A stretch of 57,192 bases of DNA, filler included, from Jimgerdemannia flammicorona (Eukaryota), in NCBI GenBank assembly GCA_003990765.1. It is 3 parts of 3 records of this genome, joined end to end, with 100 filler letters (N's around TTAATTAATTAA, not from the genome) between each part and the next. Parts side by side here need not be neighbours in the genome. Positions count along the whole stretch, not along the records: positions 1 to 19,003 come from RBNJ01002053.1; positions 19,104 to 38,098 come from RBNJ01002054.1; positions 38,199 to 57,192 come from RBNJ01002055.1. One strand, 5' to 3'. The translations under genes and the position numbers were made by a program. The notes beneath the pieces are model-generated. The model saw nothing but the letters and a program-made list of their open reading frames with translations, ran no database searches and was not told the origin of the DNA. This document shows positions 7,301 through 44,800 of the stretch, piece by piece (position 1 is the stretch's first letter; every line of letters starts with the position of its first letter).

Positions 7301-9512
7301 CTTTGGAAAAGTCCTCTTCAGAGTTCTCGGGTTCTCCTTTGGATGGGCGGATGGAGATAGCAAAGAGAGGGCATTTCTTGGCCAATTTCTTGAGTTGTAG
7401 CTTGTTGATGTGGGTGATCTTTGGTCCAGGTTCACTAGAGTTGAGTGGGTTCTTTTTGCCTTGTAGTTTGAAGTTGTGGCGTCCTTTCTTGATGGTCAGA
7501 GAATGGTTTACCCAATCAATCATGGGGTTCTCTTGCTTTAACCATGGAGTCCCAAGAATGATTTCATTGTCAGGAAGTAGTACGATTTGGAGGGTAACAT
7601 GTACTCGATAGTCGCCAATTCAGAAGGGTAGATTGCAGACTTCTTTGCTAATAACATGTGAGGTTCCATCAGCTGTAGCAACTGCTTGAGTTTGCTGTAC
7701 TGGGGAGGTGAAGACCTTGAGTCTGTTGGCTGTTTCCTTATTGATGAAGTTGCCTGAGGCACTACTGTCTATCATAATCTTGACAGGTGCTCTGTTGACA
7801 AAAGCCTTAAGGGTGAGCAGTTTGTCTGATCCAATGGTGGTGATTTCAGTTGTAGGAGCCTTTCTTCTGTTGGTTCTTCTTTGAGCCAGTTCGTTGACAC
7901 AAGAGAAGCAATCATCAATCATTCGGGAAGAGTACATTCCAATACCATGAGGGCATCAGCCACTTGGTACATATCCATCTTCTATCTTCTTGTAGAATTG
8001 TTCTTCTTTGCTTATGGTAGGTTGGGCTGGTGCTTTGTTTGATGAGCCAAATCCTTTGGATCCTCAGATGGTAGGTAGTAGTTCAGGGACTTCCTTGACT
8101 GTCAGGGTTGACTCGATTTTTTCGAATAGGATCTGGGCGATACAGAAACCAATAGGGATCTTGAAGGGTATCCAACTGTGATTTCGGATGAGGACAATGA
8201 TTTCGCCTGTATAATCTTCGTCAATGACTCCTCCTTCTACTGAGAGTCCTTTCAGCGCTAGGCTACTGTGACAGCATATTCTTCCAATATGTCCTTCAGG
8301 GATTTGGATACTGATTCCTGTATAGACTTGTTTGATTTCTTGGTTGGAAACTGTAGCTTCTTTGGCTGCATATAGGTCATATCTGGCTGCTTTTTGACTT
8401 CCTTTGGTTGGGGCCTTAGCAGTTTGTCTTAACTTGACAAAGTCTAGTATTCTGGTGGTCAGGTTGTTGAGGTGGTGCAGAGTGATAACAGTTGCTCATG
8501 TTGCTGTTCGGGGTTTTCGGTTGGGGCAGGCACTGGCCATGTGTCCTGTCTTTCAGCAATAGAAGCATGCTCCGCTTCTTCGAAGTTTGTTTCTTTTGCC
8601 TTCGGTAAGTTTCTTGAAGGTACTCGGCTGGGTGGGTTCATGATTTCTGAGTGTCCAAGGGGTGGATGTAGGGGGAGCTTGGGATGCTTCATGCTTGGGT
8701 TCTTCTTTCTTGGTCCAAGTCTTTTCCTTGTTGTTGAATTGCCTTTGGGGCAGAATTGGTCTAGCTGTTAGGATTCACTTGACCATGGTCTTGATTCTTG
8801 CCAGGCACCATTGTTAGTGATCGCAACCAACTGGGCAGCCTTGTTCTCGGATTTTTCTAGTAAGCCATTCAGGCAGAGCATCGAATAAATGGTCTGCCCT
8901 TGTATCATTTCGTGCTTCGTCATTGGCAATGTATCCTAGGCCAACAGTGTTCAGGAGTGACTCGAGTTTTATATAGAATGTTTCAAATTCTTCTTTGCCA
9001 TGTACATCAAATTTGAGGTTGCGGAGTTTTACTCGAGATTCGGCAATCATGGTCTCGCTGCGGTATTGAGCAATCATGAGTTGTTTGAGTCCAGGAGCTG
9101 CAGGATGGGCTCTATATCCTGGGGCATTGTTTGCTGCATTCTGAGCAACTACTGTAGGTCGGGTATCCTATGTGAGGGGTTTTTCAGGAAGGGTTCGCCA
9201 CCATTCTTCAGCAGGTCCTCGGAAGAATGTAACAACTCGGCGGACATAGGCTGTAGTTGTAGCAAAGAGTTGTTCCAGAGTGTGATCTTGATTGTTTGTC
9301 AGAATGCGGTCAGCAACTCGCTCATTGGTCCATTGATTGGCTTCAAAGTTGGTATCAACTACACTAATGAAGCTTTGGACTTCTTGTACAGTACCATTGA
9401 AGGTAGGTAGGCTCAGATTTTTTGTAGGTTGGGTCTGTTCAGCTAAGGCAGTAATGGTTGCTGCTATTATAGCTACTTGGGCTGTGAGGTCTAGAATCTG
9501 TTGGTTTGCCAT
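4380..9512 (-). pseudogene. Element B single-frame gag-pol: Gag(CCHC)-dUTPase-CPHG module-protease-RT-RNase H-integrase-chromodomain, broken by scattered stops
   Basis: The pieces checked share one frame: CFYC*KTGHMASAC (8567), GGVIDEDYTGEI (~8235), MIDSSASGNFI, YIDD, TDASD/TDH, IGPF, EYEVEQIL...YLVKWKGY...TWEP. Confidence 0.93.
8040..8444 (-). pseudogene. dUTPase domain of element B (between nucleocapsid and protease)
   Basis: Manual translation: AARYDLY...HSSLALKGLSVEGGVIDEDYTGEI...IAQI...*GSKGFGSS, matching trimeric dUTPase motifs 1-5; not in the ORF track. Confidence 0.88.
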
Positions 9513-10458
9513 GTTGTTTACTGGAGGTAGCTGGACTGCTGGTAGTGGTGTTACTGGTACTACTTGAGATACTGGTGCAGAGTGTGATGGGGTTCTTTGG
9601 ATCTGTGTAAGTTGCTGGAGTAGTAGTTGTGGATCTGGAGTAAGGGCTTGATAGATAGCTGTTTGTTGCTGTGTAGGTGTATTCTGTCCTGATGGATGTG
9701 TGTCTCCTTCAGTAGTGTATCTGAGATCGAATTCGGTGAGATACTCCTCCTCTTCTTCGGTTTGGTCCCTGTGTAATTGGGTTTACTCAGCGTTAAAGTA
9801 GACAGAATCAGTTGTATATCTGATCTCAGATGGACTTAATTCAAAGTCAAGTTCAGGTTCAGTATTGGTTTCAGATTCAGGTAGGATTGTAGCAGGGCCT
9901 GCTTCAGGTTTGGGGTCAGGTAGTTGATAATGGGTTTCTCTTGCTTCTTCTTTAAGAATATGGTGGGCCTTGCTGTTCTGGAATCGGTAGTATAAGGCAG
10001 TCTTGGTCCTGGTGCAGTGAAAGTCGGTAGAGTTGAGCCACTTGGCTACAGAGGCTTGGGCTTCGTGAGGAACTAAGACTAGAAAGACTGCTGCTGGTTG
10101 TCCTAGGTCGCTCGGATTTGTGGAGCTGACAAAACTCTTATTGAGAAGAGTAAAGAAGGCTTCAATAAGACCTTCTTCATCTTGACTTGCTGGGTGTAGT
10201 GCAAGGAGTTCGGTGAATAGGATTTCGCCTATTTGCTGGTTTAACTTGAGTACTTCTTTTTTTGAATGAAGTTTATCCCACTTGTTGCAGGTGTGGAGGT
10301 CAAATTGTCCTTGTACATCAGATTCAATTCTCTCCAGATTGTCAGATTGTTCAGATAAATTCCAGTTCAGAGGTTGGGCTTTATACCAACTTGTAGGAAT
10401 TCACAGAAGAGTTTGTAGTGGGGTGAGGAAGCATCTTGAAGCAGAATTGGATTATAAA

Positions 10459-10470
10459 CCGCTGCTACCA
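10459..10470 (-). other. Primer binding site of element B, probably initiator tRNA-Met
   Basis: TGGTAGCAGCGG 3 nt inside the 5' LTR; TGGTAGC is complementary to the 3' end (GCUACCA) of fungal and animal tRNAi-Met. Confidence 0.75.
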
Positions 10471-10473
10471 AGT

Positions 10474-12552
10474 TGTAAGAGGGTTACTTTTTAGGGTGAC
10501 CGTTACGTAGTTCTGGAAGGGTTTTCTGGAAGCTCTGGATATTCTGGAAGACTGTTTTCTTATGGTCAAGATCAATTTCATATGGAGTATGTTCTCTACG
10601 CTTATTGATTTCAAGATCGGGTTGACGTCTCAACCAAAGTCCTTTTTCGGACTAGTTCTGGATGTTCAGGATTTTCTGTATTTCAGGAAGTTCAAGAAAC
10701 TAAGACCAGCTTAGTTGAATTGGCGTATCGCTGCAGACAATACCCAATTAGGAAATTTCGTGATGGAGTTAGGAGTAGGACCTAACAGGGAGCAGATTTA
10801 CTTAAGAGTGGTTTGTGGGTTATGGAATAGGTTTATTTGCTATTCATGATATTGCTATACTAGGAATATTTGTGTGAAGGGGTATTGTGGGGAAGTGCTC
10901 AGGAGTTGTGTTCCGATTGTTCAAGTCCATTCAAGTCTGAGATTCTGAGGTCTGGGGGAGGGGGTATTTATACTAGTGAGGGGCTATCTGGACTATACTA
11001 GATATGGATGTAGCACTAAGTGCCTTGCTGAGTCGGAGTGCAGTCACGTAGTACAAGTGTGGTCTGACATGTCAAGGGATCGTCTGACTGCTGAGTCAGT
11101 TCACAGTCACGTCGTACAAGGCTAATCTAAGTATACTATGACTGCTAGGCTATTTATGAGTTTAGGTACTGTCTGGGTAGTCTTCGATGACATCACCATT
11201 GATTGCATCATCTCTGATGAAGTAGTCATCTAGGAAGAGTGGTTCGTGGATTACTTCTCCTTATTGGCTGAGGTAGTAATACATACATCGGGACTTCATC
11301 TCCATCCCACAGAATAGCATCGTCTATTTCGTATGCTGGATAAGGTGTTGGTGGGCGAAGGATGGGTGTACTGTCTTCGCTTTCATCGGATTCGCTGTCT
11401 GCGTACCTTCTATAGGTTACAGCACTATGAGTTGCGGGGTTATAGTATGCTGGCGGCTGTGGTTCATGTCGCTCATACTCGGGTGGTGGAGTGGTTGATT
11501 CGATCTCGAGGGTTGTCTGAAGGTACAGGTTGTGTTCTCCAGTCTCTTCATTGTAATTGAAGTAATCGGGGGTAAATGCAGGTTGGTATTCGTGTCAGTG
11601 GTCATTGTCCCAATAAGTCTCGTATGCAGTTATGAACTGTTGTAAGTTCATCGGCAAGGTCGGCGGAGTGATCAGGGTTGGCAGAGATCCTTGGCTAGAG
11701 GTCATGTCAGTGTCAGAGGGATCATTGTCTTCTGCTTCATCTTCATCAAAGTGGATTATATCATAGACATCCTTCATGGCATATCCGACTTGAGGCATTT
11801 GCAGGATATGGTCATCAGGGTGCGGGAAGGTTCTGTCTATAGTCTGGATATATTCGAGGTACTTGTGGTTGAGTTCTTGTATCATGTCATCGATTTGGCC
11901 ATAGGACAGGGTAGCAACCATTTCGCTGGTAGTAACTCGGAGGCAGGGAATAAAGGCATTGTACTCGTAGAAGAGTTCTCGATGTTTGTGGGCGATGAGC
12001 TTCTGGTGTTGAGACATCTGGGTAATGTCTGTATCATGGTGATGTTTGACCATGTCTTCCAGGAGGTGGCTGATCTGGTAATAGCTTGAGATTTGTCTGA
12101 TTTGGTGGGCCTCGTTAAGCATGTTCAGGGCATTCCATCAGGCTTCCACGAAGTAGAGGGGTGCCAGGCTATGGATATTCATGAGGGGCAGAGGGGGTGT
12201 GGCTCGGTTGACAATGGCATTCCAAATGTCAGCACGGATGCAGTTATAGATCTCAGTGGTCATGTTTGTATGTTTGGAAGTTGTGGTTATTGTTTGTTTT
12301 GGTTCTCTGATTCGATGCATCTTGGTGCTTGGTATATATGCATTTGGTCCTGATTGGTAAGGTTCTGTTTATGTAGATCTTGTGTTCTGTGACTTTGTAT
12401 TGACTCAGCTTTGTGCGCTGTGACTTCGGTTTGACTCAGCTTCGTGATCAAGCAGGTGATTTCCAGATTTGTTCGGAGGTTGCATGTGATTTCAGTGGCT
12501 TTGTTCAGAGGGTGACATGTAATTTCGGTGGCTTGGAGGTTGTGCGCTTACA
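10474..12552 (-). repeat. 5' LTR of element B (2079 bp)
   Basis: Colinear with 1881-3955, with a 4-nt insertion near 11281; TATA at 10964-10973. Confidence 0.95.
11162..12320 (-). pseudogene. Second copy of the B LTR accessory ORF
   Basis: Pieces 12320-12138 and 12122-11595 share a frame; stops fall at different codons from the 3' LTR copy. Confidence 0.8.
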
Positions 12553-12557
12553 GAAAG

Positions 12558-15500
12558 CCAAGCCGAAGAGATGGACCAAGATATGGAGCTGAAGTAAGCA
12601 ATTCAAGATATTATCTGAGAAACCACTCCAGCCAGTGAAGGAGAAAAAGAAAAGAAGCTTCACAAGACCAAGATCTTCAAGTATGATACATATCTTCAAG
12701 GACCTCAGTCAACAAAAGGTCAATGCAACCTTTGGTCAGCTCACAGAAATTCCAACATTCAGATAGCAAATGAGGTTTGGACTTGCTGAAACAACTAAGG
12801 AACAAGGATGGAAGATAACTGAGGCCAATAACGTTCAAGAGGACTCAGAAGAAGAAAGTGAGGACAATTGCAAAACCTCTGTTTATGCAACATGCCAAAT
12901 CGAAGATAGAATCTTTGAAGCCATCATTGATATGGGAGTAGGAGGGTGTCTCCTCAGTAAGAAGGCAGTAGACCACCTAGGTTGAGATGTGAAAGAAGCA
13001 ACTAAGCTGATGTTCGTCACAGCTGATAGTACAAGAGCTACACCTCTGGGAAAGATCTGAGATGTTCCCATTAAGATTGGAGGAGCAACCATCTCAGTAG
13101 ATGTAATTGTAACCAATGCCACCAACTATGATATCCTCATCGGCAATCAATGGCTTCACAAAGCCAAGGCAGTAATCAATCTCAATGCCCAGAAGATGCA
13201 GATCACCTACCAGGGACAGAAGATATGAATTCCCATCAATGTCAACAAAGGAGTCCTGCCTGACATGGAGGAAGAAGAGAGTGAGCAAGAGGAAGCTTAT
13301 GTATATGGTGATTACTCCAAAGAAGAAGAAAGTTAGATGGATAAGTAAAGAAGAATGGTACAAGAAGATTACAGAAGGTTATACCCTACAAGAAGTCTGT
13401 CCTCATAGGATCAAGATGTACTGTATGGAGCATGTTAATGATTGCAACCAGTGCACCATCGGAATCAAGAAGATCTATCAGGAAAGAAGGCAGAAAGCTC
13501 TTGAAAAACAGATCAGAGAAGAAGAGAAGGAGGAAGATGATAAACCACCAGCCCTTCTAGAGGACAGTAATGATGAAGAAGAAATCAAGGTCAAGATTTG
13601 AAAGATCCACCCTAATGCAGTCTTGCCAGAATACAAGTCAGAAAATGTAGCTGGAATGGACATTGCTATAGTAGAAGAAACTGTACTGAAACCCCAGACA
13701 ACCACCCTACTCGCAACTGGACTGGAAATGACCATTCCAAAAGACCATGTCGGGATCCTCAAGACAAAAAGCAGCCTGGCCAGAAGTGAAATTACTATTG
13801 AAGGAGGAGTCATTGATTCAGACTATACTGGAGAAATTCTGCTCATTGCCAGGAATCACAATCCTGCAATTCCATTCCCAGTCAAGAAGAAGGACCGATT
13901 GGCACAGATGTTGATCTTCCCAATCATACAACAAAGGATCATAGAAGTCAAGAATCTGGAGGAAATGAAAAGAGGAAAGAAAGGATTCAGATCCACAGGA
14001 AGAGGAGTATTCACCAGTAACAAGATTACCGAACTTGAGCATAAGAAGGAGAAAAACATAAGCAAGCACAGCTACACTATTAGAAATGAATTTCCACTCA
14101 AGAAAGAACTCAAGAAAATACTCCACGAATTCGAAGATATCCTTGCTATAGATTTCAAGGATATTAAAGAAAAGATCCCACACTACTATCATGAAGTGGA
14201 TACTGGAAATACTGAACCAATTTATCAGAAGGCAAGACCTGTCCCACCAGCCTACCAAGAATGACTCAGAGAAGAAATCAAGCAGATGGAAGAAGCCGGC
14301 ATCATTAAAGAAGCCAGCAGCCTTTGGTTCTCACCTATTGTACTAGCTCCAAAAAAGAGCAGCAAGCCTGGAGAATTTGCCCCAAGACTCTGTGTTGACT
14401 ACAGAAAGCTCAACATGGTTACCAAAAAGGATCACCAACTACTGCCCCTCATCAATGACATCCTCATAATACTGAGAGACGAAGTACAGTACTACAGTAC
14501 TTTGGACTTATACTCAGGATTCCACCAAATTGGACTCATAGACATGGCAAGTGAAAAGTCAGCTTTCATCACCCCAGATAGAACCTACGTCTACCTACGA
14601 ATGCTATTTGGAATGTACAATGCACCAGTAAGTTTCCAGCAAATGATGAATAAAATCTTCCACTATGACATGGGAAGATAGATGATGGTCTATGTTGATG
14701 ATATAATTATCTACAGCCAGACACCAGAAGAACACCTACAGTATATCTGGCAGATAATGGAAAGACTGAGAAAGCATAGCCTATATATCAAGCCCAAAAA
14801 ATGTAAATTTGCAGAAATCAAGATCTCCTATCTTGGCCATATCATTAACTGAGATGGAATACATGGACCCCCTAAGATACAAGCAGTGGCAGCATACCCA
14901 AGACCCACCACTGTTACAGAAGCCCAAGCCTTCATGGGACTTGCTTCCTATTATCGCAGATTTATTAGAGGATTTTCTAATATTGCAGGACCAATCTATG
15001 AACTTAACAAGAAGGATACCAAGTTCCAGTGGACTGGCAGACAACAAAAAGTATTTGATGAACTCAAGGTCAGACTGATCCAGGCACCCATCCTCAGAAG
15101 ACCTGACTGGACTCAAGAATTCATTCTACAGACTGATGTAAGTGTACAAGAACTAGGAGTAGTCCTAGCTCAAAAGAAAGATAAAGTGGAGTATGTCATT
15201 GCATACCTCAGCCGCAGAACCTGAGGAGCTGAAAAAGAATATGAATCCTACAAGTTGGAATGCATTGCAGTCATCTGGGTCATAGAAAAGTTCCACTACT
15301 ACTTGGCTGGAAGATACTTCACCATCCAAACGAACCACTCAGCTCTCACCTGGCTACTGACAACTGGACAACCCAAAGAAATCTATGCCAGATGGATAAT
15401 GAAGCTATAAGCCTATAATGTAACCATTGTATACTGCCCTGAAAGAACACATTCCAATACAGATGCTCTCTCACAGATACTCTGAACTACCTCCAACCAA

Positions 15501-16689
15501 TAAATCAATCATGAATAAGGAGCTCTACTATGGAATTATCACATACCTGGGACAGCAAAAGATGCCCCAACATCTGGAAGAATGGACACAAATGATTATC
15601 AACAGAACATAGAAACAATTCGAAACTGATGGAGAAATACTGAAGAAAGGAAAACTACTAGTCATATCAGAACACAAGAAGGAGCAAGTGATGAAATCAG
15701 TATATAAACTTGGCCATCTAGGAGGAATGAATACATATGACAAGGCAAGAAGAACAATATGGTGGCCAGGGATAAAGGAAGATATCAGACAATTCATCAA
15801 AACCTGCGACAAATGCCAGAAACAGAAACAAGACCAATGAAACCAGGCCCCGGGATCAGCATGTATAGAACCAGTACCATTTGCCCACATAGCAATGGAT
15901 GTAATTGGCCCTCTACCCTTGATCCTGACTGGTAACCGATATATCATTGTCATTATAGACCTTTTTATGAAGTGGATAGAAGCAGGACCTCTCAAGAAAG
16001 CCAATGCACAGTTAATTGCTGATTTCTTCTACAAGGAAATCATCTGCCAGTTCAAGACCTCAACATAAGTAACTATAGATAGAGGAACAGAATTTGTGAA
16101 CCAGCTCTTTGAGGTTCTTTACAAGAAGTACAAGATCTAGCACATTTGGATCACAGTCTATCACCCCCAAGAAAATAGACAAGCAGAAAGGACCAATAAG
16201 ACCCTCAAGAATGTTATTGCCAAGATCTGTGATAACTATGAAAACTGGGATTACTATCTGCCAATAGTATTATCCACTCTCTGGGATATCTGATCACAAA
16301 GTATCCACTTTACCCCTTGAGAAATGCTATTTGGAGAAGAATGTTCTCAGGGAACCCTATCATCTAATAGAGATACTATATGGAAACATGTGGACATGGA
16401 AATATGGAGACTACACCAAATCAGGAAGAAGGCTGAGAATTACATAACCAAGGCACAGACACTACAATAGAGGAATGTGGAAAAGACCCACAAACCCTTG
16501 GAGATTATCAAGATAAGAGACAAAGTCCTAGTATATCGGAATATGGTAGAAGCTTTATGGTCATAAAACTGGAGCCCAAGTAGGAAGGACCTTACCTGGT
16601 GCAAGATATAAAAGGGGCTACAAAAACCCTCAGGCACAATAATTTCCACCACCATTCACCAAAACCGACTCAAGAAATATTATGGCTAG
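12558..16689 (+). pseudogene. pol: Element A gag end plus pol: protease, CPHG module, dUTPase, RT, RNase H, integrase
   Basis: AIIDMGVG (degenerate DTG), GGVIDSDYTGEI, LCVDYRKLN, YVDD at ~14691, LQTDVS, IN zinc finger GHLG...CDKC, GPY; ends RLKKYYG* at 16689. Confidence 0.9.
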
Positions 16690-17068
16690 TAACAAAAGTA
16701 CTGCAATGGCACTCAAGATCACTAGCACTGCCCAAAGAGCCATTGAGAGACAATGGTGCACCACCAAGCCTCCAACCATAGAGAAGTCTTATGACAGTAT
16801 CCAAAGCATCATGTAGACTCATCTCTCTCAAATCTCACACTTTAAGGCCTATCAGCATCGAAACGAATTTCAAGAGTACTTCAAACTTGGCCAAGTACTC
16901 AACTAAGACCCAGAAATAACCAAAGAAAATTGGATCACAGAATACCAGCTCTCTTATTCCTAGATCACTATTGCTAAGAGAATCCACAAGCTATTCTGAG
17001 AAAATGAACCAGCACTAGCCCATGCGACACCATTGGAAAACAGTAATACAACAAATCACACAATATAA
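16682..17068 (+). pseudogene. Element A accessory ORF between integrase and 3' LTR, homologous to the LTR ORFs of B/C/D/E
   Basis: MASNKST...QRAIERQW...FQEYFKLGQVL...ITIAKRIHKLF*ENEPALAH, with 4 internal stops; its ATG overlaps the end of IN. Confidence 0.62.
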
Positions 17069-17142
17069 GACCATACAGACCATTGAAGCCTGGGAGTTTG
17101 AATAGATGCTTTAGGGACAAGATCATCTATTCAAGAGGAAGT

Positions 17143-17601
17143 TGTAATGGTATAGCCAGATTCAGAAGAAGGAAATAGAGAACAGATACTTGATCACACC
17201 CAGTCCCAAAGTAGTATAGCTACATAGTTAGCAGTCCTCAATTTCACCACTTGCTAAATATTTTACAAAGTATGAGATTGAGTTTCTTGATTTAGTATAG
17301 CATTTCGCAACTAGCAAAATATTTCACAAAGTGTTAAATAACTCATAACTTAGCCACATAACTCAGTAACCATCTCATAGCTAGCAAACTTGTATAAATA
17401 ACCCAATATCTTCAAGTGAATAAACCTCAGATCGAAATAGTTCAAAGCAAAGAGATAGCAAAGGAACTAGTAAGTCTGTAGGCAGATATACTTCGAACTC
17501 ACCCACCCTCCCCTGCAAACTCAAAGGACTCTGAGAAGTTAGAGAAGATCAAGTTTTCAAGATACAGAAATCTGATATACTTTCAAATCTGCTACATTAC
17601 A
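17143..17601 (+). repeat. 3' LTR of element A
   Basis: TGTAATGGTATAGCC...GCTACATTACA. Confidence 0.92.
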
Positions 17602-17699
17602 ATATATTAAATAGACTATTTTAGTATATAATATTAGTAATATTATTAATATTATAGTTTATTTTTAATTTATAATATATTAAGATTATAGATTATTAA

Positions 17700-18111: not shown

Positions 18112-18513
18112 TAAAATGAGGTTAATATATAAGCTAAAATTTATCAACTTATTAAATTAATTCATTCTGAGTACTAATTGATATTATAAACTATTTTAGC
18201 TTATAATATCATTGACATCATTGAGCAATTTTTAACAATAATATTAATAATATTAATAATATAATAGAGCTGAAACAAGTGCAAAATTATTATAATCTTA
18301 TTTATATCATTAACTCTTTTAGTGTGGTGACATGATCTAATAATGCATCATTGTGACACCAGAGTGTTAATTCATTACAAGCATGATTGGAGAATTTTGT
18401 TCAAGAGAGTAACTGTGTCCGTTTTGCCGGTGTTGGTTGTACGCGATGAGATGCCGGATTCAATTGCAAGCAGTGCGGCTAAAAATTGCAGAAGGAAGAT
18501 TTTTCAAACATAC

Positions 18514-22320: not shown

Positions 22321-25300
22321 TTACTTCTCTTGTATAGGTTCGTGGTACTTCTTGAGTCTGTTCCTATGTACTATAGTAGGCAGTATGGTCCCTGAGATTT
22401 TTCTAAGCCAGAAGGTAGTTCTCTTGATATCTTGCACATAGAAGAGTCCTTCTCATTTGGGCTCCAGTTTTCATGACCATGAGGTTTCTACTATATTTAG
22501 ATATAGTAGAATCTTTTCTCCAATTCAGATGGGTTCTAGGGTCTTGTGATTCTTTTCCGCATTCTTCCTTGTCAGTGCTTATAACTTGGTAATGTAATCA
22601 TTAGCCTTCTTCCTGATTTGGTGTAGTCTCTGGATTTCTGCATCAACCCATCTCTAAGTTAGGTCTAGATTTGTGACTGAGGTTCCATCAGAATCTTCTT
22701 CTCTGAAGAGCAGCTCTCTTGGGGTAAAATGTGTGCTCTGTGACCATATATCTCATAGGACAGAGAGGGCAGTTGGGAGATAGTTATTCCAATTCTCATA
22801 TGTCTCTGAGATCTTCGCTAGGATGTTCTTGAGAGTCTTATTGGTTCTTTCTGTCTGTCCATTTCCTTGAGGGTGGTATGTGGTGGTCTTGATGTGCTGG
22901 ATCTTGTATTGCTGATATATTATCTCATGGAATCCATTGACAAATTCCGTTCCATGGTCTGTTGTGATTTGCTTTGGTATCTTGTAGTGGCAGATGATTT
23001 CGGTGCAGGAAGTCAGCTATAGAGAGAGCATTGGCTTCTTGTAATGCTCCTGCCTCTATCCATTTGGTGAAGAGGTCTAAAATAACTATAATATAGCAGT
23101 TTCCTGATAGTATTACTGGTAGTGGTCCAATGATATCCATTGTAATGTGGTGGAAGGGGATAGGCTCAATTCTTGATGACCCAGGTACCTGGTCTTGCTG
23201 ATCTTGTTTCTGTTTTTAGCACTTGTCACACCCTTTGACAAATTGGTGTAGGTCTTCTTCCATCTTGGGCCACCACATAGTTCTTCTTATCTTATCATAT
23301 GTATTGGTTCCTCCTAAGTATCCTTGCTCGTGTACTTCCTTCATTACTTGATACTTCTTGTGTTCGGGTATTACTAGCTTTCCTCCTTTTCTGAGTATAG
23401 TATTGTCTAATTCAAACTGTTTCCAAGTCTGGTTGATAATGGTGATTGTCCAGGGTTCGAGGTGGTTAGGCATCTTCTGCTACCCAAGGTAGCTGATTAT
23501 TCCATAGTATAGCTCCTTATTCATATTGAATAGTCTTGATGGGGGTGTTTCGGGGTGTCCTTGAGAGTGTGTCGGCATTGGTATTGGTCTTTCCTGAGCA
23601 GTGCTTGATAGTACAGTCATACTCTTGCAGCCTGTAGATCTATCTGGCATATATTCCTTTGGGGTTCAGAGTGTGGAATAGCCAGGCAAGAGCAGAATGG
23701 TCTGTTTGAATGGTGAAGTATTTCCTGGCTAGGTAGTAGTGGAACTTGTCTACTGCCCAGACTACTGCTAAGCATTCAAGCTTGTATGACTCATAGTTCT
23801 GTTCTGCTCCATGGGTACTTCAGCTTGTGTAGAAGATGATATATTCATATCCATCTTTCTTCTGAGCTAGGACTGCTCCAAGTCCTATAGCACTTGCATC
23901 TGTCTGCAGGATGAATTCTAGGTTCCAGTCTGGTCTTCTGAGGATAGGTGCTTGGGTCAACCTGCTCTTGAGTTCATTAAAGGTTTCTTGGTGCTCCTTG
24001 GTTCATTCAAATTTGGTTTTCTTCTTCAGTAACTCATAGATAGGTGCTGCAATATTGGAGTATCCTTTGATGAATCTTCTGTAGTAGCTGGCCAGTCCAA
24101 GGAAGGCGTGGACTTCTGTAGTTGTTCTGGGTCTTGGGTAGACTGCAACAGCCTTGATCTTCATGGAGTCTGTATGGATTCCAGTCTGGTTGATGAGGTG
24201 TCCTAGGTAGGCAATTTCTTGAGCTGCAAACTTGCATTTCTTGGGCTTAATGTAGAGGCCATGCTCCTTGAGCTTCTTGAGGGCTAGCTGTATGTGATTG
24301 ACATGTTCCTGTACAGTATTGCTGAAGATGATCACATCATCAACATAGACAAAGAGCCATTTTCCAATATCGTTACTGAAGACTCTGTTTATCATTCGCT
24401 GGAAACTTGCTAGGGCATTGCACATTCCAAATGGCATTTGCAGGTAGATATAGGTGGCATCAGGTGTGATGAAGGCTGATTTCTCACTGACATCTTGAGT
24501 GAGACTAATCTGATAGAAGTCTGAGAACAGATCCAAGGTGGTGTAGTATTTGGCTTTGCTTCCAAGAGTAGTAAGGATCTCTTGAATATTTGGCAAGGGC
24601 TGCCTATCCTTCTTGGTGATGGCATTGAGCTTCCTGTAGTCAATGCAGAGTCTTGGCGCAAACTCTCTAGGCTTGCTTCCTTTCTTTGGAGCAAGGACAA
24701 TGGGTGAGGCCCAGGGGCTGATAGCTTGCTTGATGATTCCGGCTTCTTCCATTTTCTTGAGTTCTGCTTGCAGCCATTCTCTGTAGGCAGGTAGTATGGG
24801 TCTGGCTTTCTGGTAGATGGGCTTGGTATCACCAGTGTCAACTTTATGGTAGTACTTGGGTTCTTGATTATGAATATCCCTAAAGTCTGTAGCAAGTACT
24901 CCTTTGTTCTGGTACAGGATCTTGAGAAGTTATTCCTCCAGGGGAAAGTTTTCTCCAATGATATATGTGTGCTTGTTCTGGTCCTTGTCTTTCTTGTGCT
25001 CAAGTTCAGTAATCTTGGTGGCAGCATAGGCTCCTCTTCCAGTAGATCCAAAGCCTTGTTCTCCTCTCTTGGTCTTGATGAGTTTGATGGCTTCTATGAT
25101 CTTGGGCTTCTTGATTTCATGGATCAGCATCTGGTCAATCCTGTCATACTTCTTGACTTTGAATGGGGTGGTGGAGTTGTGATTCCGATCTATGAGGAAG
25201 ATCTCATCAGTATAATCAGGGTCAATTACTCCTCCTTCAACTGAGATTTCACTTTTGGCCAGACTGCTCCTGGTCTTGATAATTCTGGCATAGTTCTCTG

Positions 25301-27530
25301 GCAGCTTGACTCCAATTCTAGTGCCAAATAGGGTAGTGGTCTGTGGTTCGAGGGTAGCATCTTGAATGCTGGCAAGGTCTATTCCTATGGCTCCTTCAGT
25401 CTTATATTCTGGGATCTTGGCTTTGGGGTGAAACTTCTTAACCTTGTGGATGATGTCTGATTCTTGTTCCTCCTTATTGTCACTGTCAGCCTGAAGCTCT
25501 GGGGGCTGGTCATCTTCTTCAGCTTTTCTTTTTGCTTCAGCAGCTTCTTGCTCATATTTCTGTTGGTGGATTTTCCTGATTTCACTGATACAGGACCAGC
25601 AGTCATTCAGGTGTTCAGAGCAGTACATCCTAATACCATGGGGGCATCTTCCTTGAGGGGTATACCCATTGATGATCTTGTTATACCACTGCTCATCTGT
25701 GAGCTTGAGTGTCTTGTTCTTGTTCTTGTTCACTGAGTACATGAAGACCTCTGTGTCCTCTTCATCTCCTTCCTCCATGTCTGGTAGAACTCCTTTGTGG
25801 ACATTGATAGAGACTCATACCTTTCTTCCTCTATAGTTGATCTGCATCTTCTGGGCATTGAGGTCAATGATGGCCTTGGCCTTGTGAAGCCATTGGTTGC
25901 CAATAAGGATGTCATAGTTGGTGGCACTTGTAACAATCATGTCTACTGGGATGATAGCTCCTCCTATCTTGATGGGGACTTCTCGGATTTTGCCAAGGGG
26001 GGTAGCTTGTGTACCATCTGCTGTGATATAGACCATCTTGGTGGACTCTTCAATGTCCCAACCTAGGCAGTCAATTGCCTTCTTACTCATGAGACATTCT
26101 CCAGCACTAGTATCAATGATGGCATTAAAGATACAGTCTTCGATCTGGCATGGGGTATAGGCTGATGTCTTATGCTGGTCTTCAGATTCTTCACCTGAGT
26201 TCTCAGATTCATCCTGTGCATTGTGAGCTTCTGCAAACTTGTACTCCTGATTCTTGGCAGTAGTTGCAAGTCCTACTCTCAACTGCTGTCTGAAGGCAGG
26301 GACTTCAGCTAGCTGTCCAAAGGTAGTATTGACCTTCTATTCCTTGAGGTCCTTGTAGATATCATACTGGTGGATCTTGGTCTTGTACAGCTTCTGTTCC
26401 TTCTTGCTTTCACTTTCTCCTAAGACTGGAGTAGTGTCTTCAATAATTTGGTGGGTAGCTTCATCTAACTCCATATCTTGATCAATCTCCTCAGGTTGGG
26501 TCTTGCTTTAAATAGTGACAGCTGGGGTCTTCTTTGGTCTTCCAACTGGCTTGCTGTTGCTCTTCTTATCATAGGGCTTGGACTGGGTTCTGGTACCTTC
26601 AGTAGCAGGGTAGAATTCAAGCTCCTCATAGTATTCTTCATCATCTGTGTCACCAATCTCCTTGCATTGGTTTGTTCTCTGGTTCTGCTAGCATTGCTTG
26701 GTTGGGCTTTGTGTCTTGTTTTGGTCATGCGACTCTTTGCATAGTGGCCTTCTTCTCCATATCTGAAGTATGTAATATTGCATTCTTCTGTAGCAGCTGC
26801 AAATCTCTGCACTGGTCTCCTGTTGGCACTTTGGACTTCTCTAACAACATTACCAAAGTGTGCAGTTATCTCAGCAAACTGCTTGGCAAGTTCTTCCACT
26901 GAGTCAGCTTTGGCTGTCTTGGAGGTAGGTGGGGTTGGTTGTCTGTTTATAACTGTGGTAGGTATGATACTAGTTGGCTTTGATGGCTCCATCTTGATGC
27001 CAGTTATTTTCTCCATTGAGTGTTCAGCAGGGTGTCTGGCAGTCCAATATCTCTGTATAAAGACCACTTTCTGATCAAGGGTCAGTGTAGCTGAGGTAGA
27101 CCAGATTGCTAGGGCAATTTCAGGGTGAACTCCTTTGAGGAAGATTGAGTCCACTATTTGTTCCTTGAGACAGTCATCATAGCCAACCAAGACAATCTGA
27201 TTGCAAATTCGGGTATAAAATGAGTTGGGATCTTCACTAAGTCTCTGGCAGATAGTATTGAGTTGATCCTTGAGAGCTTGCTTGATCTCTTCAGTATAGT
27301 ATGTTGTTCTGAGGAAGGCCTTTATATTGGCAAGTTTGGCTGCACCAGCATCAGCAATGGTGGCTGCATTGAACTTGTCTCTGGCAGGTTCTCTGAGGCT
27401 GACTAGTAGAAGGGCCAATTGTACATCCACACCAAGGGCTCATATGGCAGCAAATTGTTCAAAGTCTTCAATGAAGATCAGGATTGACTCTTTAGTAGTA
27501 TATCCATAGAATGTAGGGGAGTGCATTTCT
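22321..27530 (-). pseudogene. Element C gag-pol (Gag-PR-CPHG module-dUTPase-RT-RH-IN), many stops
   Basis: ORF pieces 27430-26465, 26282-25815, 25778-24930, 24752-24003, 23473-23216 and 23140-22925 carry the expected motifs. Confidence 0.9.
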
Positions 27531-36900: not shown

Positions 36901-37099
36901 GTTTGAGCAAAAGAAGTCCTTTTTTTGTATCATTTATTATATTCATTATTCATATATTATATATCATGCTTGATCAATAGTGATATTATTGTCAGATTAC
37001 ATGATTGCTCATTATATCTCATCTGTTTACTCACTACTTGTTCTATTACATCCTTTTCCTCTTAAAAATTAATATCCTCATTAATTTAGAAATTGAGAA

Positions 37100-37889
37100 C
37101 CAGGAGAGGGAAAGGTGGGAAATCCTTCTCAGTATTGTTGTCTTCTCCTTCAGTGACTAGAGGGGTAGTTGCTGATGGTATGATGTCTAGGATAGAGAAG
37201 TCAATGAGGTCTACAAATGGTTCTTGAACTAGAATAGACATTGGGATAGGGATTCTCCATCTAATATAGTTGGGACCATCTAAGTAGAGTTCTTACTCCT
37301 CATATCTGGAAATATCCATTCAGATGGGCAGTTCTTCAAAGAGATCAGAGAGACCTTGAAGCCATTGGTCTGAGTTGTTATTCAGGAGAGAGCTCTAGTG
37401 GGATTTGTAGTCAGTAGATTTGAGAGTAATTTAGAAGTTAGTTTCTTAGACAACCTTGATCTCTAGTTCATCAATCTTAGAGAATAAGAGGTTCTAGAAG
37501 TCCTTTAGTTATATATAGTTAAAGTTGGGAATTGCAAAGAGTATATAGTATATAATTTAATAGATCTTCTTGGCTTGTCTTTGCTTGTGTCTATCTATAT
37601 GAGTCTAGTCTGAGATCTGGTCAGTGGGTAGGCCATTTGAATATTGAAGAAGTTGATGGCCAATTTCAAATTTATGCCAGATTTCTAAATAGCTAGTAGT
37701 AAGGTAGGCCCTTTCAATAAGTTTATGGTGGTCAAGAACATACTGTTCTAGGTCCTAGATAAGGAGATTAAGGGCCTCAGAGCAATAGTTCTTTTCTTAG
37801 ATAGCAACCTGGATATGTTCAAAGAGGCAGTCAATCTGGCTTCAGAGGAGCTGGCTATAGTGAACTGTTTGGTGGTGGGTAGCAGACAT
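37100..37889 (-). pseudogene. Accessory ORF of relic E, homolog of the C/D LTR ORF
   Basis: Manual translation: LEIWHKFEIGHQL...RQAKKIY*II...AIPNFNYI*LKDF...LNNNSDQWLQGLSDLFE vs C LQMWQEYEIGNLL...RAAKKIYQIF...SIPNLEYVRVSDF...LQDNPDQFLQGLISVFQ; TATAAATA ~70 nt upstream; 3' end approximate. Confidence 0.72.
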
Positions 37890-38851: not shown

Positions 38852-41800
38852 TTATCCTGAAGGATGGAATACCAGAAGTTTTTTACTTTATTACTATCAA
38901 GGGTGATAGTGGACTGGACTTCTATAGCCATTCTGGTTTCTAGTATGTTGATATGGTGGGCTGACAGGTCTCTAAAGTCTGAGACTCTAATATACACTAA
39001 GTTGGGGATCAATCATGATACTGAAGATCTGATGAATCTTCTTAGCTGTTCTTGTTTTGCATATATCTATGAGAGTGGCATCTTATAGCTCTTGAGTACT
39101 GGTCTGTAGAAATTCCCAGCAGAGGAGGTTTCCTATTTCATACTTCTACCACATTTGGAGGCATTCAGTAGTAATGGTGATCCTTGTTTCTATTTTACAG
39201 CAGTAGAGGATATAATGATAAGAGTCACCAGTACCCAGATTGATACTAGGAGACCTTCTTGAGAGGTCCTTATGGTTCTTCTGATGTCTTGGAACATTCT
39301 TTCTTCAACTGAGATACCTTAGTGGTTTCTTGACCTTGAGGTTTAGTGAGCAGCTTATAGTAAGTCTTTGAGCTATTTTGGGATTGGTGGGTCTTATTGG
39401 TTGCTGCTACTGCAGTTCCTTGAACCGTCTTTTATATTTCTCAAGATATCTGAACTATGGTCACAATGACTCACAGTTGGTCATCATCACTCATCTCATA
39501 TGCCTTATGATCTTCTTGTACTCTGATCTGATGACTTGTAAGAAAAAGCAGTCTCTTATGCTGATGTCATCATTCTGAGATCACCATTATATCTTCTTTC
39601 TGAATAAGGATCTTCTTAAGTATCCTTATTCATTGGTCCAGTTTTGAAAAATTTGCTGATCCCATAATCTCTGGCAAGGGGTTGAAAAGTGGTGTTTATG
39701 GGCTGGTATCTTCTCTATGTATTTTGGTGTGATGATGAAGAGTCACTCTCTTTATATAAAGCAAAGACCTAATTCTGATCTTGACTAATCAGTTGATGGT
39801 TTGAACTCCTCTGGCTTTGAAAGTCTCATGAATGAGTAGTTGCTAGTGCTGTATCTCTTAGAGAATGGTCCAGACAGATAGCCTGCTAGTCATGGGACAT
39901 GCTGTTATGATTCATGGACTAGAACCTTGTGGGCAGTCATCACATTTTACTTCTCTTACATAGATTCATGGTACTTCTTGAGTCTGTTCCTATGTACTAT
40001 GGTAGACAGTATGGTCTCTGAGATTTTTCTAAGCCAGAAGGTAGTTCTCTTGATATCTTACACATAGAAGGGTTCTTCCCATTTGGGCTCTAGTTTTCAT
40101 AACCATGAGGCTTCTACCATATTTCAATACAGTAGAACCTTTTCTCTGATTTGGATGGGTTCTAGGATCTTGTGATTCTTTTCTACATTCTTTTTTATCA
40201 GTACTTATGACTTGATGATGTAATCTTCAGCCTTCTTTCTGATTTGGTATAGTCTCCAGATTTCTGCATCAACCCATCTCCAAGTTAGGTCTAGATTTGT
40301 GGCTAAGGTTCCATCAGAATCTTCTTCTCCAAAGAGCAGTTCTCTTGGGGTAAAGTGTGTGCTCTATGACTGTATGTCTTGTAGGACAGAGAGGACAGTT
40401 GGGAGATAATTATCCCAATTCTCATATATCTCTAAGATCTTTGCTAGGATGTTCTTGAGGGTCTTGTTGGTTCTCTCTGTCTGTCCATTTCCTTGAGAGT
40501 GGTACATAGTGGTCTTAATGTACTGGATCTTGTATTTCTGATATATTATCTCATAGAATCTATTGACAAATTCTGTGCCATGGTCTGTTGTGATTTGCTT
40601 CAGTGTCTTGTAGCAGCAGATAATTTCTCAGTACAGGAAGTTAGCTATAGAGAGGGCATTGGCTTCTTGTAATGCTCCTGCTTCTATCCATTTGGTAAAG
40701 AGGTCTACAATAACTATAATATAGCAGTTTCCTGATAGTATTACTGGTAGTGGCCCAATGATATCCATTGCAATGTGGTGGAAGGGGATAGGCTCAATTC
40801 TTGATGACCCAGGTGTCTGGTCTTGCTGATCTTATTTCTGTTTTTGGCACTTGTCACACTCTTTGACAAATTAGTGCAGGTCTTCTTCTATCTTGGGCCA
40901 CTATATGGTTCTTCTTGCCTTATCAAATGTGTTGGTTCCTCTTAGGTGTCCTTGCTCATGTACTTCCTTCATTACTTGATACTTCTTATGTTCAGATATT
41001 ACTAACTTTCCTCCTTTTCTGAGTGTAGTGTTGTCTAGTTCGAACTGTTCCCAAGTCTGGTTGATGATGGTGATTGTCCAGGATTCAAGGTGGTTGGACA
41101 TCTTCTGCTGCCCAAGATAGCTGATTAATCCATAGTATAGCTCCTTATTCATATTGAATAGTCTTAGTGGGGGTGTTTTGGGGTATCCTTGAGAGTGCAT
41201 TAGCATTGGTGTTGGTTCTTCCTGGGTAGTACTCGATAGTACAGTTATACTCTTACAGCCTGTAGATCCATCTGGTATATATTCCTTTGGGGTTCAGAGT
41301 ATGGAATAGCCAGGCAAGAGCAGAATGGTCTGTTTGAATAGTAAAGTATTTCTCAGCTAGGTAGTAGTGGAACTTGTCTACTGCCCAAACTACTGCTAAG
41401 CATTGAGTTTGCATGACTCATAGTTCTGTTCCACTCTGTGGATACCTTGGCTTGCATAAGAGATAACATATTCATATCCATCTTTCTTCTGAGCTAGGAC
41501 TGCTCTAAGTCCTATAGTACTTGCATCTGTCTGCAGGATGAATTCTAGGTTCCAATCTGGTCTTCTGAGGATAGGTACTTGGGTCAACCTAGTCTTGAGT
41601 TCATTGAAGATTTCTTAGTACTTCTTAGTCTATTCAAATTTGGTTTCTTTCTTCAGTAGCTCATAGATAGGTGTGGTAATGTTGGAATATCCTTTGATGA
41701 ATCTTCTGTAGTAGCTGGTCAGTCTAAGGAAGGCATGGACTTCTGTGGTTGTTCTGGGTCTCAGGTAGGCTGCAACAGCCTCAATCGTTATAGAGTCTAT

Positions 41801-44800
41801 GTGGATTCCAGTCTGGTTGATGAGGTGTCCTAGATAGGTGATTTCTTGAGCTGCAAACTTATATTTCTTGGGCTTGATGTAAAGGCCATGCTCCTTGAGC
41901 TTCTTGAGGGCTAGTTGTATATGATTGACATGTTCCCATACAGTATTACTGAAGATGATCACATTATCAACATAGACAAAAAGCCATTTTCCAATCTCAT
42001 TGCTGAAGACTCTGTTTATCATTTACTGAAAACTTGCTAGGGTATTGTACATTCCAAATAGCATTCACAGATAGATATAGGTGATATCAGGTATGATGAA
42101 GACTGATTTCTCACTAGCATCTTGAGTGAGACCAATCTGATAGAAGTCTGAGAATAGATCTAAGGTGGTGTAGTATTTGGCTTCACTTCTAAGAGTGGTA
42201 AGGATTTTTTGAATATTTGGTAAGGGCTGCCTATCCTTCTTGGTGATGGTATTGAGCTTCCTGTAGTCAATGCAGAGTCTTGGTGCAAACTCTCCAGGCT
42301 TGCTTCCTTTCTTCAGAGCAAGGACAATAGGTGAAGCCCAGGGGCTGATAGCTTGCTTGATGATTCCAGCTTCTTCTATTTCCTTGAGTTCTACTCACAG
42401 CCATTCTCTGTAGACAGGTGATATGGGTCTGGCTTTCTGGTAGATGGGCTTGGTATCACTAGTGTCAACTTTGTGGTAGTACTTGGATTCTTGATTGTGG
42501 ATATCCCTAAAGTCTGTAGCAAGTACTCCTTCATTCTAGTATAGGATCTTGAGAAGTTGTTCTTTCAGGGGAAAGTTTTCTCCAATAGTATATATGTGCT
42601 TATTCTGGTCCTTGTCTTTCTTGTGCTCAAGTTCGGTAATCTTAGTAGTAGCATAGGCTCCTCTTCTAATAGATCTAAAGCCTTGTTCTCCTCTCTTGGT
42701 CTTGATGAGTTCAATGGCTTCAATGATCTTGGGTTTCTTGATTTTATGGATCAGCATCTGGCCAATCCTATCATGCTTCTTGACTTTGAATAGAGTAGTG
42801 GGGTTGTGATTTCTGACTATGAGGAAGATCTTGCCAGTATAATCAGGGTCAATTATTCCTTCTTCAACTGAGATTTTGCTTTTGGCCAGACTACTTCTAG
42901 TCTTGATAATTCTGGCATAGTTCTCTGGTAGCTTGACTCCAATTCCAGTGTCAAGTAGGGTAGTGGTCTGTGGTTTGAGGGTAGCATCTTAAATGCTGGC
43001 AAGGTCTATTCCTATGGCTCCTTTAGTCTTGTATTCTGGCATCTTGGCTTCAGGATGAAACTTCTTAACCTTGAGAGTGATATCTGATTCTTATTCCTCC
43101 TCATCATCACTGTCAGCTTGAAGCTCTGAGGGCTGGTCATCTTCTTCAGCTTTCCTTTTTGCTTCAGTGGCTTCTTGCTCATATTTCTATTGGCAGATTT
43201 TTCTGACTTCACTGATACAGGACCAGCAGTCATTCAGGTGTTCAGAGCAGTACATTCTAGTACCATGGGGACATCTTCCTTGAGGGGCATAGCTATCAAT
43301 GATCTTATTGTACCACTGCTTATCTGTGAGCTTGGGTGTCTTATTCTTGTTCTTGTTCACCAAGTGTATGAAGACCTCTGTGTCCTCTTCATCTTCTTTC
43401 TCTATGTCTGATAAGACTCCTTTGTAGACATTGATAGAGACTCATACCTTTCTTCCTCTATAGTTGATCTGCATCTTCTGAGCATTGAGGTTAACGATAG
43501 TCTTGGCCTTATAAAGCTATTGGTTGCCAATGAGGATGTCATAGTTGGTGGTACTTATAACAATCATATCTACTGGGGTGGTAGCTCTTCTATCTTGATG
43601 GAGACTTCTTGGATTTTACCAAGAGGGGTAGCTCATGTACCATCTGCTGTAACATAGACCATCTTGGTGGACTCTTCAATGTCTCAGCTTAGGCAGTCAA
43701 TTGCCTTCTTGCTCATAAGGCATCCTCTAGCACTGGTATCAATGATAGCATCAAAGATACAGTCTTTGATCTGATATGGGGTATAGGCTGATGTCTTGTG
43801 CTGGTCTTTGGATTCTTTACCTGAGTTTTCAGATTATTTCTATATATTGTGAGCTTCTACAATCTTATACTCTTGATTCTTGATAATAGTTGCAAGTCTT
43901 ACTCTCAACTGCTGTCTGAAGGCAGAGACTTTGGCTAGCTGTCCAAAAGTAGCATTGACCTTCTGTTCCTTGAGATCCTTGTAGATATCATACTGGTGGA
44001 TCTTGGTCTTGTATAGCTTCTGTTCCTTCTTGCTTTCACTTTCTCCTGAGACTAGAGTAGTGCCTTCAATAATTTTGTGAGCAGCTTTATCTAACTCCAT
44101 GTCTTGATCAATCTCCTTGGGTTGAGTTTTGCTTTGAATAGTGACAGCTGGGGTCTTCTTTGGTCTTCCAACTGACTTGCTGTTGCTCTTCTTGTCATAG
44201 GGCTTAGACCAGGTTCTGATACCTTCAATAGCAGAGTAGAATTCAAGCTCCTCATAGTATTCTTCATCATCAGTATCACTAATCTCCTCAATGACTACTG
44301 CATTGGTTTGTTCTCTGGTTCTGCTAGCATTACTTGGTTGGGCTTTGCATCTTGTTTCAGTCATATAATTCTTTGCATAGTGGCCTTCTTCTCCACATCT
44401 GAAGTATATGATATTGCATTCTTCTGTAGCAGCTACAAATCTCTACACTGGTCTCCTGTTGGTACTTCAGACTTCTCTAATAACATCACCAAGGTGTGCA
44501 GTCATCTTGGTGAACTGCTTGACAAGTTTCTCCACTGGGTCAGCTTTGGTTGTCTTGGGGGTAGGTGGGGTTGGTTGTCTGTTTATAACTATAGCAGGTA
44601 TGATACTAGTTAGCTTTGATGGCTCCATCTTGATGCCAGTTATTTTCTCTATTGAATGTTCAGCAGGGTGTCTGGCAGTCTAATATCTCTGTACAAAGAC
44701 CACTTTCTGATCAAGGGTCAGTGTAGCTGGAGTAGACCAGATTGCTAGGGCAATTTCAGGGTGAACTCCTTTGAGGAAGGTTGAGTCTGCTATTTGTTCC

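What the first reader, a model, noticed from the sequence alone, without database searches (positions are those of the whole stretch)
7885..43325. dUTPase plus a CPHG...CxxC module shared by two gypsy lineages in swapped order and position
Seen: B encodes NC-dUTPase-[EEQFYKKIEDGYVPSG*CPHGIGMYSSRMIDDCFSCVNEL, 8010-7885]-protease. A, C and D encode protease-[EEWYKKITEGYTLQEVCPHRIKMYCMEHVNDCNQC at ~13350-13455; EQWYNKIINGYTPQGRCPHGIRMYCSEHLNDCWSCISEI at ~25700-25580; D ~43325-43205]-dUTPase-RT. The dUTPases share the signature EGGVIDxDYT[GD]EI....RNH...PF. Known: dUTPases occur in some fungal gypsy elements, and between NC and PR in betaretroviruses. I do not recognise the ~40-aa C-x-H...CxxC module. 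Inference: a putative zinc-binding partner that travels with dUTPase and was exchanged and rearranged between co-resident lineages.
Basis: partly seen in the sequence, partly recalled or inferred. Interest (0 to 1): 0.8.

Follow-up and report, generated by a model that had tools for sequence, protein, structure and literature searches.

The report
Zinc-type module beside retrotransposon dUTPase
Two distant groups of decayed gypsy-type jumping genes share a small, unnamed cysteine/histidine domain that sits next to their dUTP-destroying enzyme and was probably passed between the groups long ago; it is a real but modest addition to the known parts of such elements.

Summary
Observation confirmed. 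B (a chromovirus nested inside A) reads NC-dUTPase-M-protease; A, C and D (a non-chromo clade) read protease-M-dUTPase-RT. M is a ~44-aa C-x-H-x12-C-x2-C domain, confidently folded (pLDDT 87), with no significant Pfam, PDB or fold match. The link is one-way: 172 of 183 own-genome M copies have a dUTPase within 400 nt, but family F and all 117 other dUTPase polyproteins lack M. Three of those 117 carry a diverged form (M') plus an extra domain. M and M' each occur on both sides of a 100/99 protease split. M is 45-57% identical across the clades, against 25% for protease and about 40% for RT, which favours old lateral exchange. Synonymous sites are near saturation, so it was not a recent swap between co-resident families. 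Formal tests are inconclusive: the M tree is unresolved, and the dUTPase tree follows the element clades rather than a shared cassette. Best reading: a zinc-binding accessory domain added to elements that already had a dUTPase, perhaps tethering it in the particle (untested). The scan reported this module several times on other pieces of this genome; M' is new here.

The parts
1881..12552 (-). Element B: chromovirus-type Ty3/gypsy, decayed, single gag-pol frame, ~2.08-kb LTRs (1881-3955, 10474-12552; 95.7% identical), inserted into element A with a 5-bp target-site duplication
8502..8600 (-). B nucleocapsid CCHC knuckle
8037..8435 (-). B dUTPase (PF00692)
   Evidence: (E 7.6e-28)
7881..8012 (-). 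B module M (C-x-H-x12-C-x2-C), with one decay stop
7485..7826 (-). B aspartic protease
6576..7097 (-). B reverse transcriptase core
4383..4550 (-). B chromodomain after integrase
   Evidence: PF00385, E 1.1e-17
262..17586 (+). Element A: non-chromo Ty3/gypsy, LTRs 262-706 and 17142-17586 (90.6% identical), gag-NC before 1880, interrupted by B, continuing after 12552
12878..13222 (+). A aspartic protease (frameshifted against M in this copy)
13341..13472 (+). A module M
13605..14003 (+). A dUTPase (PF00692)
   Evidence: E 6.2e-26
14319..14837 (+). A reverse transcriptase core
25821..26165 (-). C aspartic protease (element C, LTRs 20347-20784 and 27652-28086)
25572..25703 (-). C module M
25029..25430 (-). 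C dUTPase (PF00692)
   Evidence: E 5.8e-24
24201..24719 (-). C reverse transcriptase core
43448..43791 (-). D aspartic protease, frameshifted (D is a C-family copy, 87% identical over 7.3 kb)
43199..43330 (-). D module M
42656..43057 (-). D dUTPase (PF00692)
   Evidence: (E 1e-18)
41828..42346 (-). D reverse transcriptase core

Best explanation
M is a small folded domain (helix, short hairpin, two helices) that probably binds one zinc through its invariant Cys-x-His and Cys-x2-Cys pairs. It is an optional accessory of retrotransposon dUTPases: elements carry a dUTPase without M, but polyproteins hardly carry M without a dUTPase. M and a diverged form M' (with an extra domain X) were exchanged long ago between a non-chromo gypsy clade (protease-M-dUTPase-RT) and chromoviruses (NC-dUTPase-M-protease; NC-M'-X-dUTPase-protease), probably by template switching between co-packaged RNAs, and not necessarily together with the dUTPase. 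As gag and pol share one frame, M is made at Gag level. It most likely stays on the dUTPase after protease cleavage and tethers or oligomerises it in the particle, keeping dUTP low where reverse transcription runs, as NC does for betaretroviral dUTPase. Shown: the domain, its selection, its distribution and the two orders. Inferred: zinc (about 0.85), lateral exchange (about 0.7), tether role (about 0.4).
For: Invariant ligands across unrelated flanks; the middle Cys/His pair varies. AlphaFold pLDDT 87 from 17 rows. pN well below pS between families. 172 of 183 de-duplicated own-genome M copies have a dUTPase within 400 nt; 9 are cut by a locus end and 2 are a deletion and an insertion. Database hits: 5 of 5 and 12 of 14 carry PF00692. 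Across clades M is 45-57% identical, protease 25-26%, RT 37-43%; within chromoviruses (B-E) M is 41% while RT is 59%. Protease tree: A, C, P0014, P0057, P0103 form a 100/99 clade; M and M' each lie inside and outside it; RT tree agrees, 96/92. P0109 has M'-X before its dUTPase like P0057/P0103, but its dUTPase groups with the chromovirus-type P0006 at 97/91. dUTPases beside M or M' are clustered on the tree (6 changes against 15.7 shuffled, 0 of 500). Catalytic-motif residues are invariant among 18 aligned element, host-like and viral dUTPases. B sits inside A, so the clades meet in one genome. Precedent: NC-dUTPase binds nucleic acid and keeps activity (PMC1802613 abstract; PMC4531489 passages).
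Against: The M tree is unresolved (0 of 10 branches starred) and does not reject one clade for the protease-M-dUTPase forms (p-AU 0.21); high cross-clade identity could reflect constraint on a 44-aa metal site. M-M' homology is only moderate (hhalign probability 37%, E 3.5e-4, 23 columns) and rests on three proteins. P0011 and P0018 carry M in short ORFs with no dUTPase or protease. M is not basic like NC, and its distance to the dUTPase varies from about 3 to 85 residues. A one-clade test of all M-bearing dUTPases was marginally rejected (p-AU 0.043); with M' carriers added after seeing the tree it was not (0.10). All copies here are decayed; no activity was observed.
Confidence: 0.5

Rival explanations
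1. Vertical descent: an ancestor of both clades had a zinc module plus dUTPase; M and M' are old paralogues or subtypes, reordered inside elements and lost many times. No lateral exchange is needed.
For: M tree does not reject clade-wise descent; the best dUTPase tree separates A/C-clade from B-type dUTPases as RT and protease do; synonymous sites are saturated.
Against: M is more alike across clades than RT or protease, and less alike within chromoviruses than RT. Both M and M' lie on both sides of the 100/99 protease split. It needs many losses: family F and the other chromovirus-type proteins among 117 lack any module.
Confidence: 0.2
2. M serves the protease or polyprotein processing (a spacer or dimerisation domain between protease and dUTPase), not the dUTPase.
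For: In all M-type polyproteins with both enzymes, M lies between protease and dUTPase, whichever comes first.
Against: In P0109 the related M' lies between NC and dUTPase, away from the protease. No M-bearing polyprotein lacking a dUTPase was found apart from decayed copies.
Confidence: 0.15
3. M is a host-directed accessory factor, an adaptor against uracil-repair or silencing machinery, kept beside the dUTPase because both protect the cDNA from uracil (analogy with lentiviral zinc accessory proteins; recalled, not from a call).
For: M also occurs in short stand-alone ORFs (P0011, P0018); its surface residues are conserved across distant elements; it is not NC-like in charge.
Against: No sequence or fold likeness to any such factor; no host partner known; context of P0011 and P0018 not seen (contigs of 1597 and 781 nt).
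Confidence: 0.1
4. M has no tie to the dUTPase; the pairing reflects a few founding events in related elements of one fungal group.
For: Only about ten independent database lineages are known, all from unnamed assemblies; 3 of 10 lack a dUTPase in the same ORF (P0012 is only 82 aa).
Against: The pairing survives three different domain orders and two clades.
Confidence: 0.05

Closest known systems
dUTPase-bearing fungal Ty3/gypsy elements: PosPlaTy3-3, -4, -5 of Postia placenta, and those of Phanerochaete and Tuber (PMC2864245, passages read)
   Same: dUTPase inside a fungal gypsy Pol, at variable positions (N-terminus, C-terminus, or between PR and RT), apparently acquired independently
   Different: No accompanying Cys/His module is mentioned in the passages read; supplements were not read
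Juno LTR retrotransposons of bdelloid rotifers (PMC5408684, abstract and passages read)
   Same: dUTPase between PR and RT with an extra zinc motif next to it; modules shared between distant retroelements
   Different: In Juno the extra Zn knuckle follows the dUTPase before RT; here M precedes it (A/C) or lies before the protease (B/E), and M is C-x-H-x12-C-x2-C, not CX2CX4HX4C. Juno sequences were not compared
Betaretroviral NC-dUTPase fusion of Mason-Pfizer monkey virus (PMC1802613 abstract; PMC4531489 passages)
   Same: dUTPase between NC and protease (B, E, F) and fused to a zinc domain; model for a tethered dUTPase
   Different: The zinc domain there is NC itself; here there is an extra unrelated domain, and in A/C the protease separates NC from the dUTPase
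Burro giant gypsy elements of planarians (PMC6431247, passages read)
   Same: dUTPase between PR and RT among several accessory domains of one polyprotein
   Different: No such Cys/His module is mentioned in the passages read

Membership tests
Ty3/gypsy LTR retrotransposon | LTRs with TG...CA ends, target-site duplication, order PR-RT-RH-IN | tested here: met
   B: LTRs, TG/CA ends, 5-bp duplication; order in A, B, C. A and C LTR pairs seen; their ends and duplications were not mapped
Chromovirus (B, E, F) | Chromodomain after integrase | tested here: met
   B PF00385 E 1.1e-17; E locus L145 and F locus L179 match B's chromodomain
Chromovirus (A, C, D) | Chromodomain after integrase; RT within the chromovirus group | tested here: not met
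   Only B gives a chromodomain hit in the window; A/C RTs form a separate 96/92 clade with P0057
Trimeric dUTPase (PF00692) | Five conserved motifs with catalytic Asp in motif 3 | tested here: met
   Pfam above cut-off; motif residues invariant among 18 open-frame sequences; the window copies carry some decay changes
Trimeric dUTPase (PF00692) | dUTP hydrolysis and trimer formation | not testable with these tools
   needs an enzyme assay
Retroviral CCHC zinc knuckle (PF00098; Juno extra knuckle) | CX2CX4HX4C spacing | tested here: not met
   M reads C-x-H-x12-C-x2-C; no PF00098 hit on M
Known zinc-finger families (C5HC2, RING, B-box) | Pfam profile match over the cut-off with the full ligand set | tested here: not met
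   Best: zf-C5HC2 E 0.01 in 2 of 9 members; zf_RING_Vps8_fungal 18.7 bits against cut-off 27.4 on P0012; no B-box family listed
Known zinc-finger families (C5HC2, RING, B-box) | Same fold | tested here: inconclusive
   Best VIA Z 3.5 (rmsd 2.4, 40 aligned) to homeodomain helices; Foldseek has nothing at E<=0.001; a 57-aa model is a weak query
Zinc-binding domain | Binds zinc through the four conserved residues | not testable with these tools
   ligand geometry was not given in the model output
Betaretroviral NC-dUTPase fusion | NC stays fused to dUTPase after processing | not testable with these tools
   cleavage sites unknown; adjacency seen in B, E, F only

The most novel reading that the evidence does not exclude
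M and M' define an undescribed family of zinc domains that fungal retrotransposons of distant clades have repeatedly passed around independently of the dUTPase, yet always docked beside one. That would make it a dedicated, mobile dUTPase cofactor (particle tether or anti-uracil counter-defence adaptor), the first accessory partner of a retroelement dUTPase other than NC, with a new zinc fold and a second unknown domain X.
Probability: 0.2. Interest if true: 0.65.

Novelty: new variant of a known kind. Interest (0 to 1): 0.4.

Why it matters
The role of dUTPase in fungal LTR retrotransposons is stated to be unclear (PMC2864245). A small domain found almost only beside it gives a handle: isolated M and dUTPase domains can be tested for zinc, binding and activity. 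It also adds a case of module exchange between gypsy clades whose RTs are only about 40% identical. The reach is limited: about ten database lineages, all known copies decayed or unassigned, and no function shown.

Tried and rejected
Known-family match: Pfam, PHROGs (best E 0.005, unknown function), NCBIfam (none), PDB sequences (0 hits; one at E 0.21) and ESM Atlas (best 0.82 unnamed clusters; none for M'-X) gave nothing usable. Fold searches found no match; this does not show a new fold. A B-box or half-RING likeness (recalled) was not borne out by these. Viral contigs: no M, no M'-X, and no M beside 80 viral dUTPases (best 1.9 bits). P0017, 1 of 14 hits, was dropped as a repeat artefact. 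The M'-X model failed (pLDDT 38.6 from 3 rows) and was not searched. M' in the own genome: 2 pattern matches against 2 control matches, neither with M or dUTPase. A host gene family for M: searches with P0011 and P0018 returned, in the loci examined, only element copies; both are saturated by repeats (150 scored of 4462 and 1665 candidates), so a host copy is not excluded. Recent swap between A/C and B: rejected by synonymous saturation. No RNA holder listed among 18 runs. No M-dUTPase complex prediction was obtained, so binding is open. Literature: seven searches listed no paper describing this module; subscription papers (Novikova and Blinov 2008; Riccioni 2008; seen only in reference lists), GyDB, Repbase and the supplements of PMC2864245 were not seen and may bear on novelty.
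Full report
OBSERVATION. B reads NC - dUTPase - M - protease - RT - RNase H - integrase - chromodomain in one frame on the minus strand; A, C and D read protease - M - acidic linker - dUTPase - RT. The window is stitched: bases 1-19003 are one contig and C lies on the next; D lies beyond a second N gap. B (1881-12552, LTRs 95.7% identical) is inserted antisense into A between A's NC and protease, with a 5-bp target-site duplication. All copies are decayed. An intron-split tRNA-synthetase gene lies near 54700-56300. That the host is a fungus I take from earlier notes of this scan and the element types; I did not test it.

FAMILIES IN THE GENOME. Searches with the C, B and A modules gave 4942, 1626 and 4694 first-look candidates, of which 150, 40 and 150 were scored; these are not copy numbers. 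The fetched loci keep their family's order. Two more families appeared: E, a chromovirus with NC-dUTPase-M-linker-protease, and F, a chromovirus with NC-dUTPase-protease and no M. A host-like dUTPase (L112) has no M either. Among 236 own-genome loci, 183 distinct M copies were found: 93 have the dUTPase downstream, 79 upstream, 9 are cut by a locus end, and 2 lack it through a deletion and an insertion. Of 188 distinct dUTPases, 30 have no M: 29 F-type and L112. These loci were picked by similarity, so the counts describe the sample, not the genome.

THE DOMAIN. An HMMER search of 1.84 billion representatives with a 9-row profile gave 14 hits. One, P0017, is a repeat artefact and was dropped. 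Nine of the other 13 carry PF00692; four do not (P0011, P0012, P0013, P0018), of which P0012 and P0013 are 82 and 63 aa. Word-based searches gave 5 of 5 (384 candidates) and 12 of 14 (6482 candidates) with PF00692. Four hits (P0003, P0005, P0007, P0010) are close kin of C, B, A and E and are not independent; about ten outside lineages remain, seven with a dUTPase in the same ORF. The pattern is C-x-H-x12-C-x2-C; the middle Cys/His pair varies (114 and 111 of 183 copies against 176-180 for the four outer ligands). Between families pS is 0.45-0.74 and pN 0.27-0.38, so M was under purifying selection. AlphaFold gives pLDDT 87, pTM 0.65: helix 7-15, a short hairpin, helices 33-38 and 40-56. No library names it and no fold matches it. 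Zinc binding is inference.

ONE-WAY LINK AND A SECOND FORM. A dUTPase profile fetched the best 120 of 277 long proteins, 117 of them new. None carries M above 30 bits. Three carry a diverged form M' (two Cys in place of Cys-x-His, the same central R-[MV]-Y-C-x-E, a preceding helix) followed by an unnamed domain X before the dUTPase: P0057 and P0103 as protease-M'-X-dUTPase-RT, and P0109 as NC-M'-X-dUTPase-protease. Profile comparison of M with M'-X gives probability 37%, E 3.5e-4 over 23 columns: likely but not certain homology. So dUTPase does without M, while M-type domains hardly occur in polyproteins without dUTPase.

TREES. RT: A, C and P0057 form a 96/92 clade apart from B, E, F and P0148 (cluster mate of P0109) (34 rows). 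Protease: A, C, P0014, P0057 and P0103 form a 100/99 clade; B, E, F, P0009, P0016 and P0109 lie outside (30 rows; the tool warns of long branches at its attachment). M and M' thus each fall on both sides. Across clades M is 45-57% identical, protease 25-26%, RT 37-43%, dUTPase 37-42%; B against E gives M 41%, RT 59%. This favours lateral exchange, and synonymous saturation dates it long before these copies. Against: the M tree (13 of 17 rows used, 44 columns) has no supported branch and does not reject clade-wise descent (p-AU 0.21). dUTPase tree (80 of 212 rows kept after de-duplication at 62%; bootstrap not settled): A/C dUTPases join P0103 and P0057 (99/76, 95/65), not B; P0109 joins P0006 (97/91). 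One clade of all 14 M-bearing rows is marginally rejected (p-AU 0.043); A+C+B is not (0.29); M plus M' carriers, a group named after seeing the tree, is not (0.10) and is clustered (6 changes against 15.7). Overall, exchange of the module is likely; its transfer as one cassette with the dUTPase is neither shown nor excluded, and P0109 suggests that they can move apart.

MECHANISM. Shown: one gag-pol frame in B and E and in the A/C relative P0057; dUTPase motifs intact in open-frame copies; M next to the dUTPase in three orders. From the literature: NC-dUTPase of Mason-Pfizer monkey virus keeps nucleic-acid binding and activity (PMC1802613 abstract; PMC4531489 passages). Inferred: M is a one-zinc domain left on the dUTPase after processing that holds or oligomerises it in the particle. 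Rivals are a role in protease processing (M lies between protease and dUTPase in both orders, but M' of P0109 does not), a host-directed adaptor, and vertical descent. No binding prediction was obtained.

KNOWN AND NEW. dUTPases at varying places in fungal gypsy Pol are known, with unclear role and independent origins (PMC2864245, passages), and the Pfam domain is enriched in Entomophthora muscae (bioRxiv 10.1101/2023.09.13.557621, one passage). Juno elements have an extra Zn knuckle after the dUTPase (PMC5408684), in another place and, by name, another spacing; sequences were not compared. Seven literature searches listed nothing on this module. The scan's own notes report the same module from other pieces of this genome; they are not independent support.

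VERDICT. Real, unnamed, probably zinc-binding accessory domain of dUTPase-bearing gypsy elements; new variant of a known kind; interest 0.4.

Noticed in passing
window 2300-3750 and 10900-12330 (-), inside both LTRs of B: Each ~2.08-kb LTR of B holds a long decayed ORF (about 400 codons, acidic and Pro-rich at the end); the 255-aa open part has no Pfam match. A third copy of LTR sequence lies at 46871-47608.
   Followed up: partly
window ~20800-21800 (-), also ~28100-29200, ~38900-39600, ~47600-48300: C and D have an extra sense ORF between integrase and the 3' LTR; the 194-aa open part has no Pfam match. Related sequence recurs outside the elements.
   Followed up: partly
P0057 ~770-835, P0103 ~745-820, P0109 ~700-765: Unnamed domain X (conserved Trp/Tyr/Phe motifs) between M' and the dUTPase, shared by two clades; no Pfam or Atlas match; fold prediction failed.
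   Followed up: partly
P0011 and P0018: M in short stand-alone ORFs (157 and 140 aa) with no retroelement enzyme; P0011 has a further His/Cys cluster near its end. Their DNA context was not seen.
   Followed up: partly
L112:1498-1899 (-): Intronless host-like dUTPase, the best PF00692 hit of the genome (142 bits), with no retroelement domains in the 3.4-kb locus.
   Followed up: partly
window 31000-37500: About 6 kb with strong negative GC skew (-0.39 to -0.50) and several medium ORFs on both strands; not identified.
   Followed up: no
window 30062-30424 and 48542-48902; related 17826-18070: AT-rich palindromic repeats of ~360 nt, MITE-like.
   Followed up: no
window 52860-53366 (+) and ~54700-57150 (+): Host genes: a C2H2 zinc-finger ORF and an intron-split class I tRNA synthetase.
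   Followed up: no
P0028-P0144: Many dUTPase polyproteins also carry copia-type domains (PF07727, PF13976), so dUTPase capture is widespread in Ty1/copia elements too.
   Followed up: no
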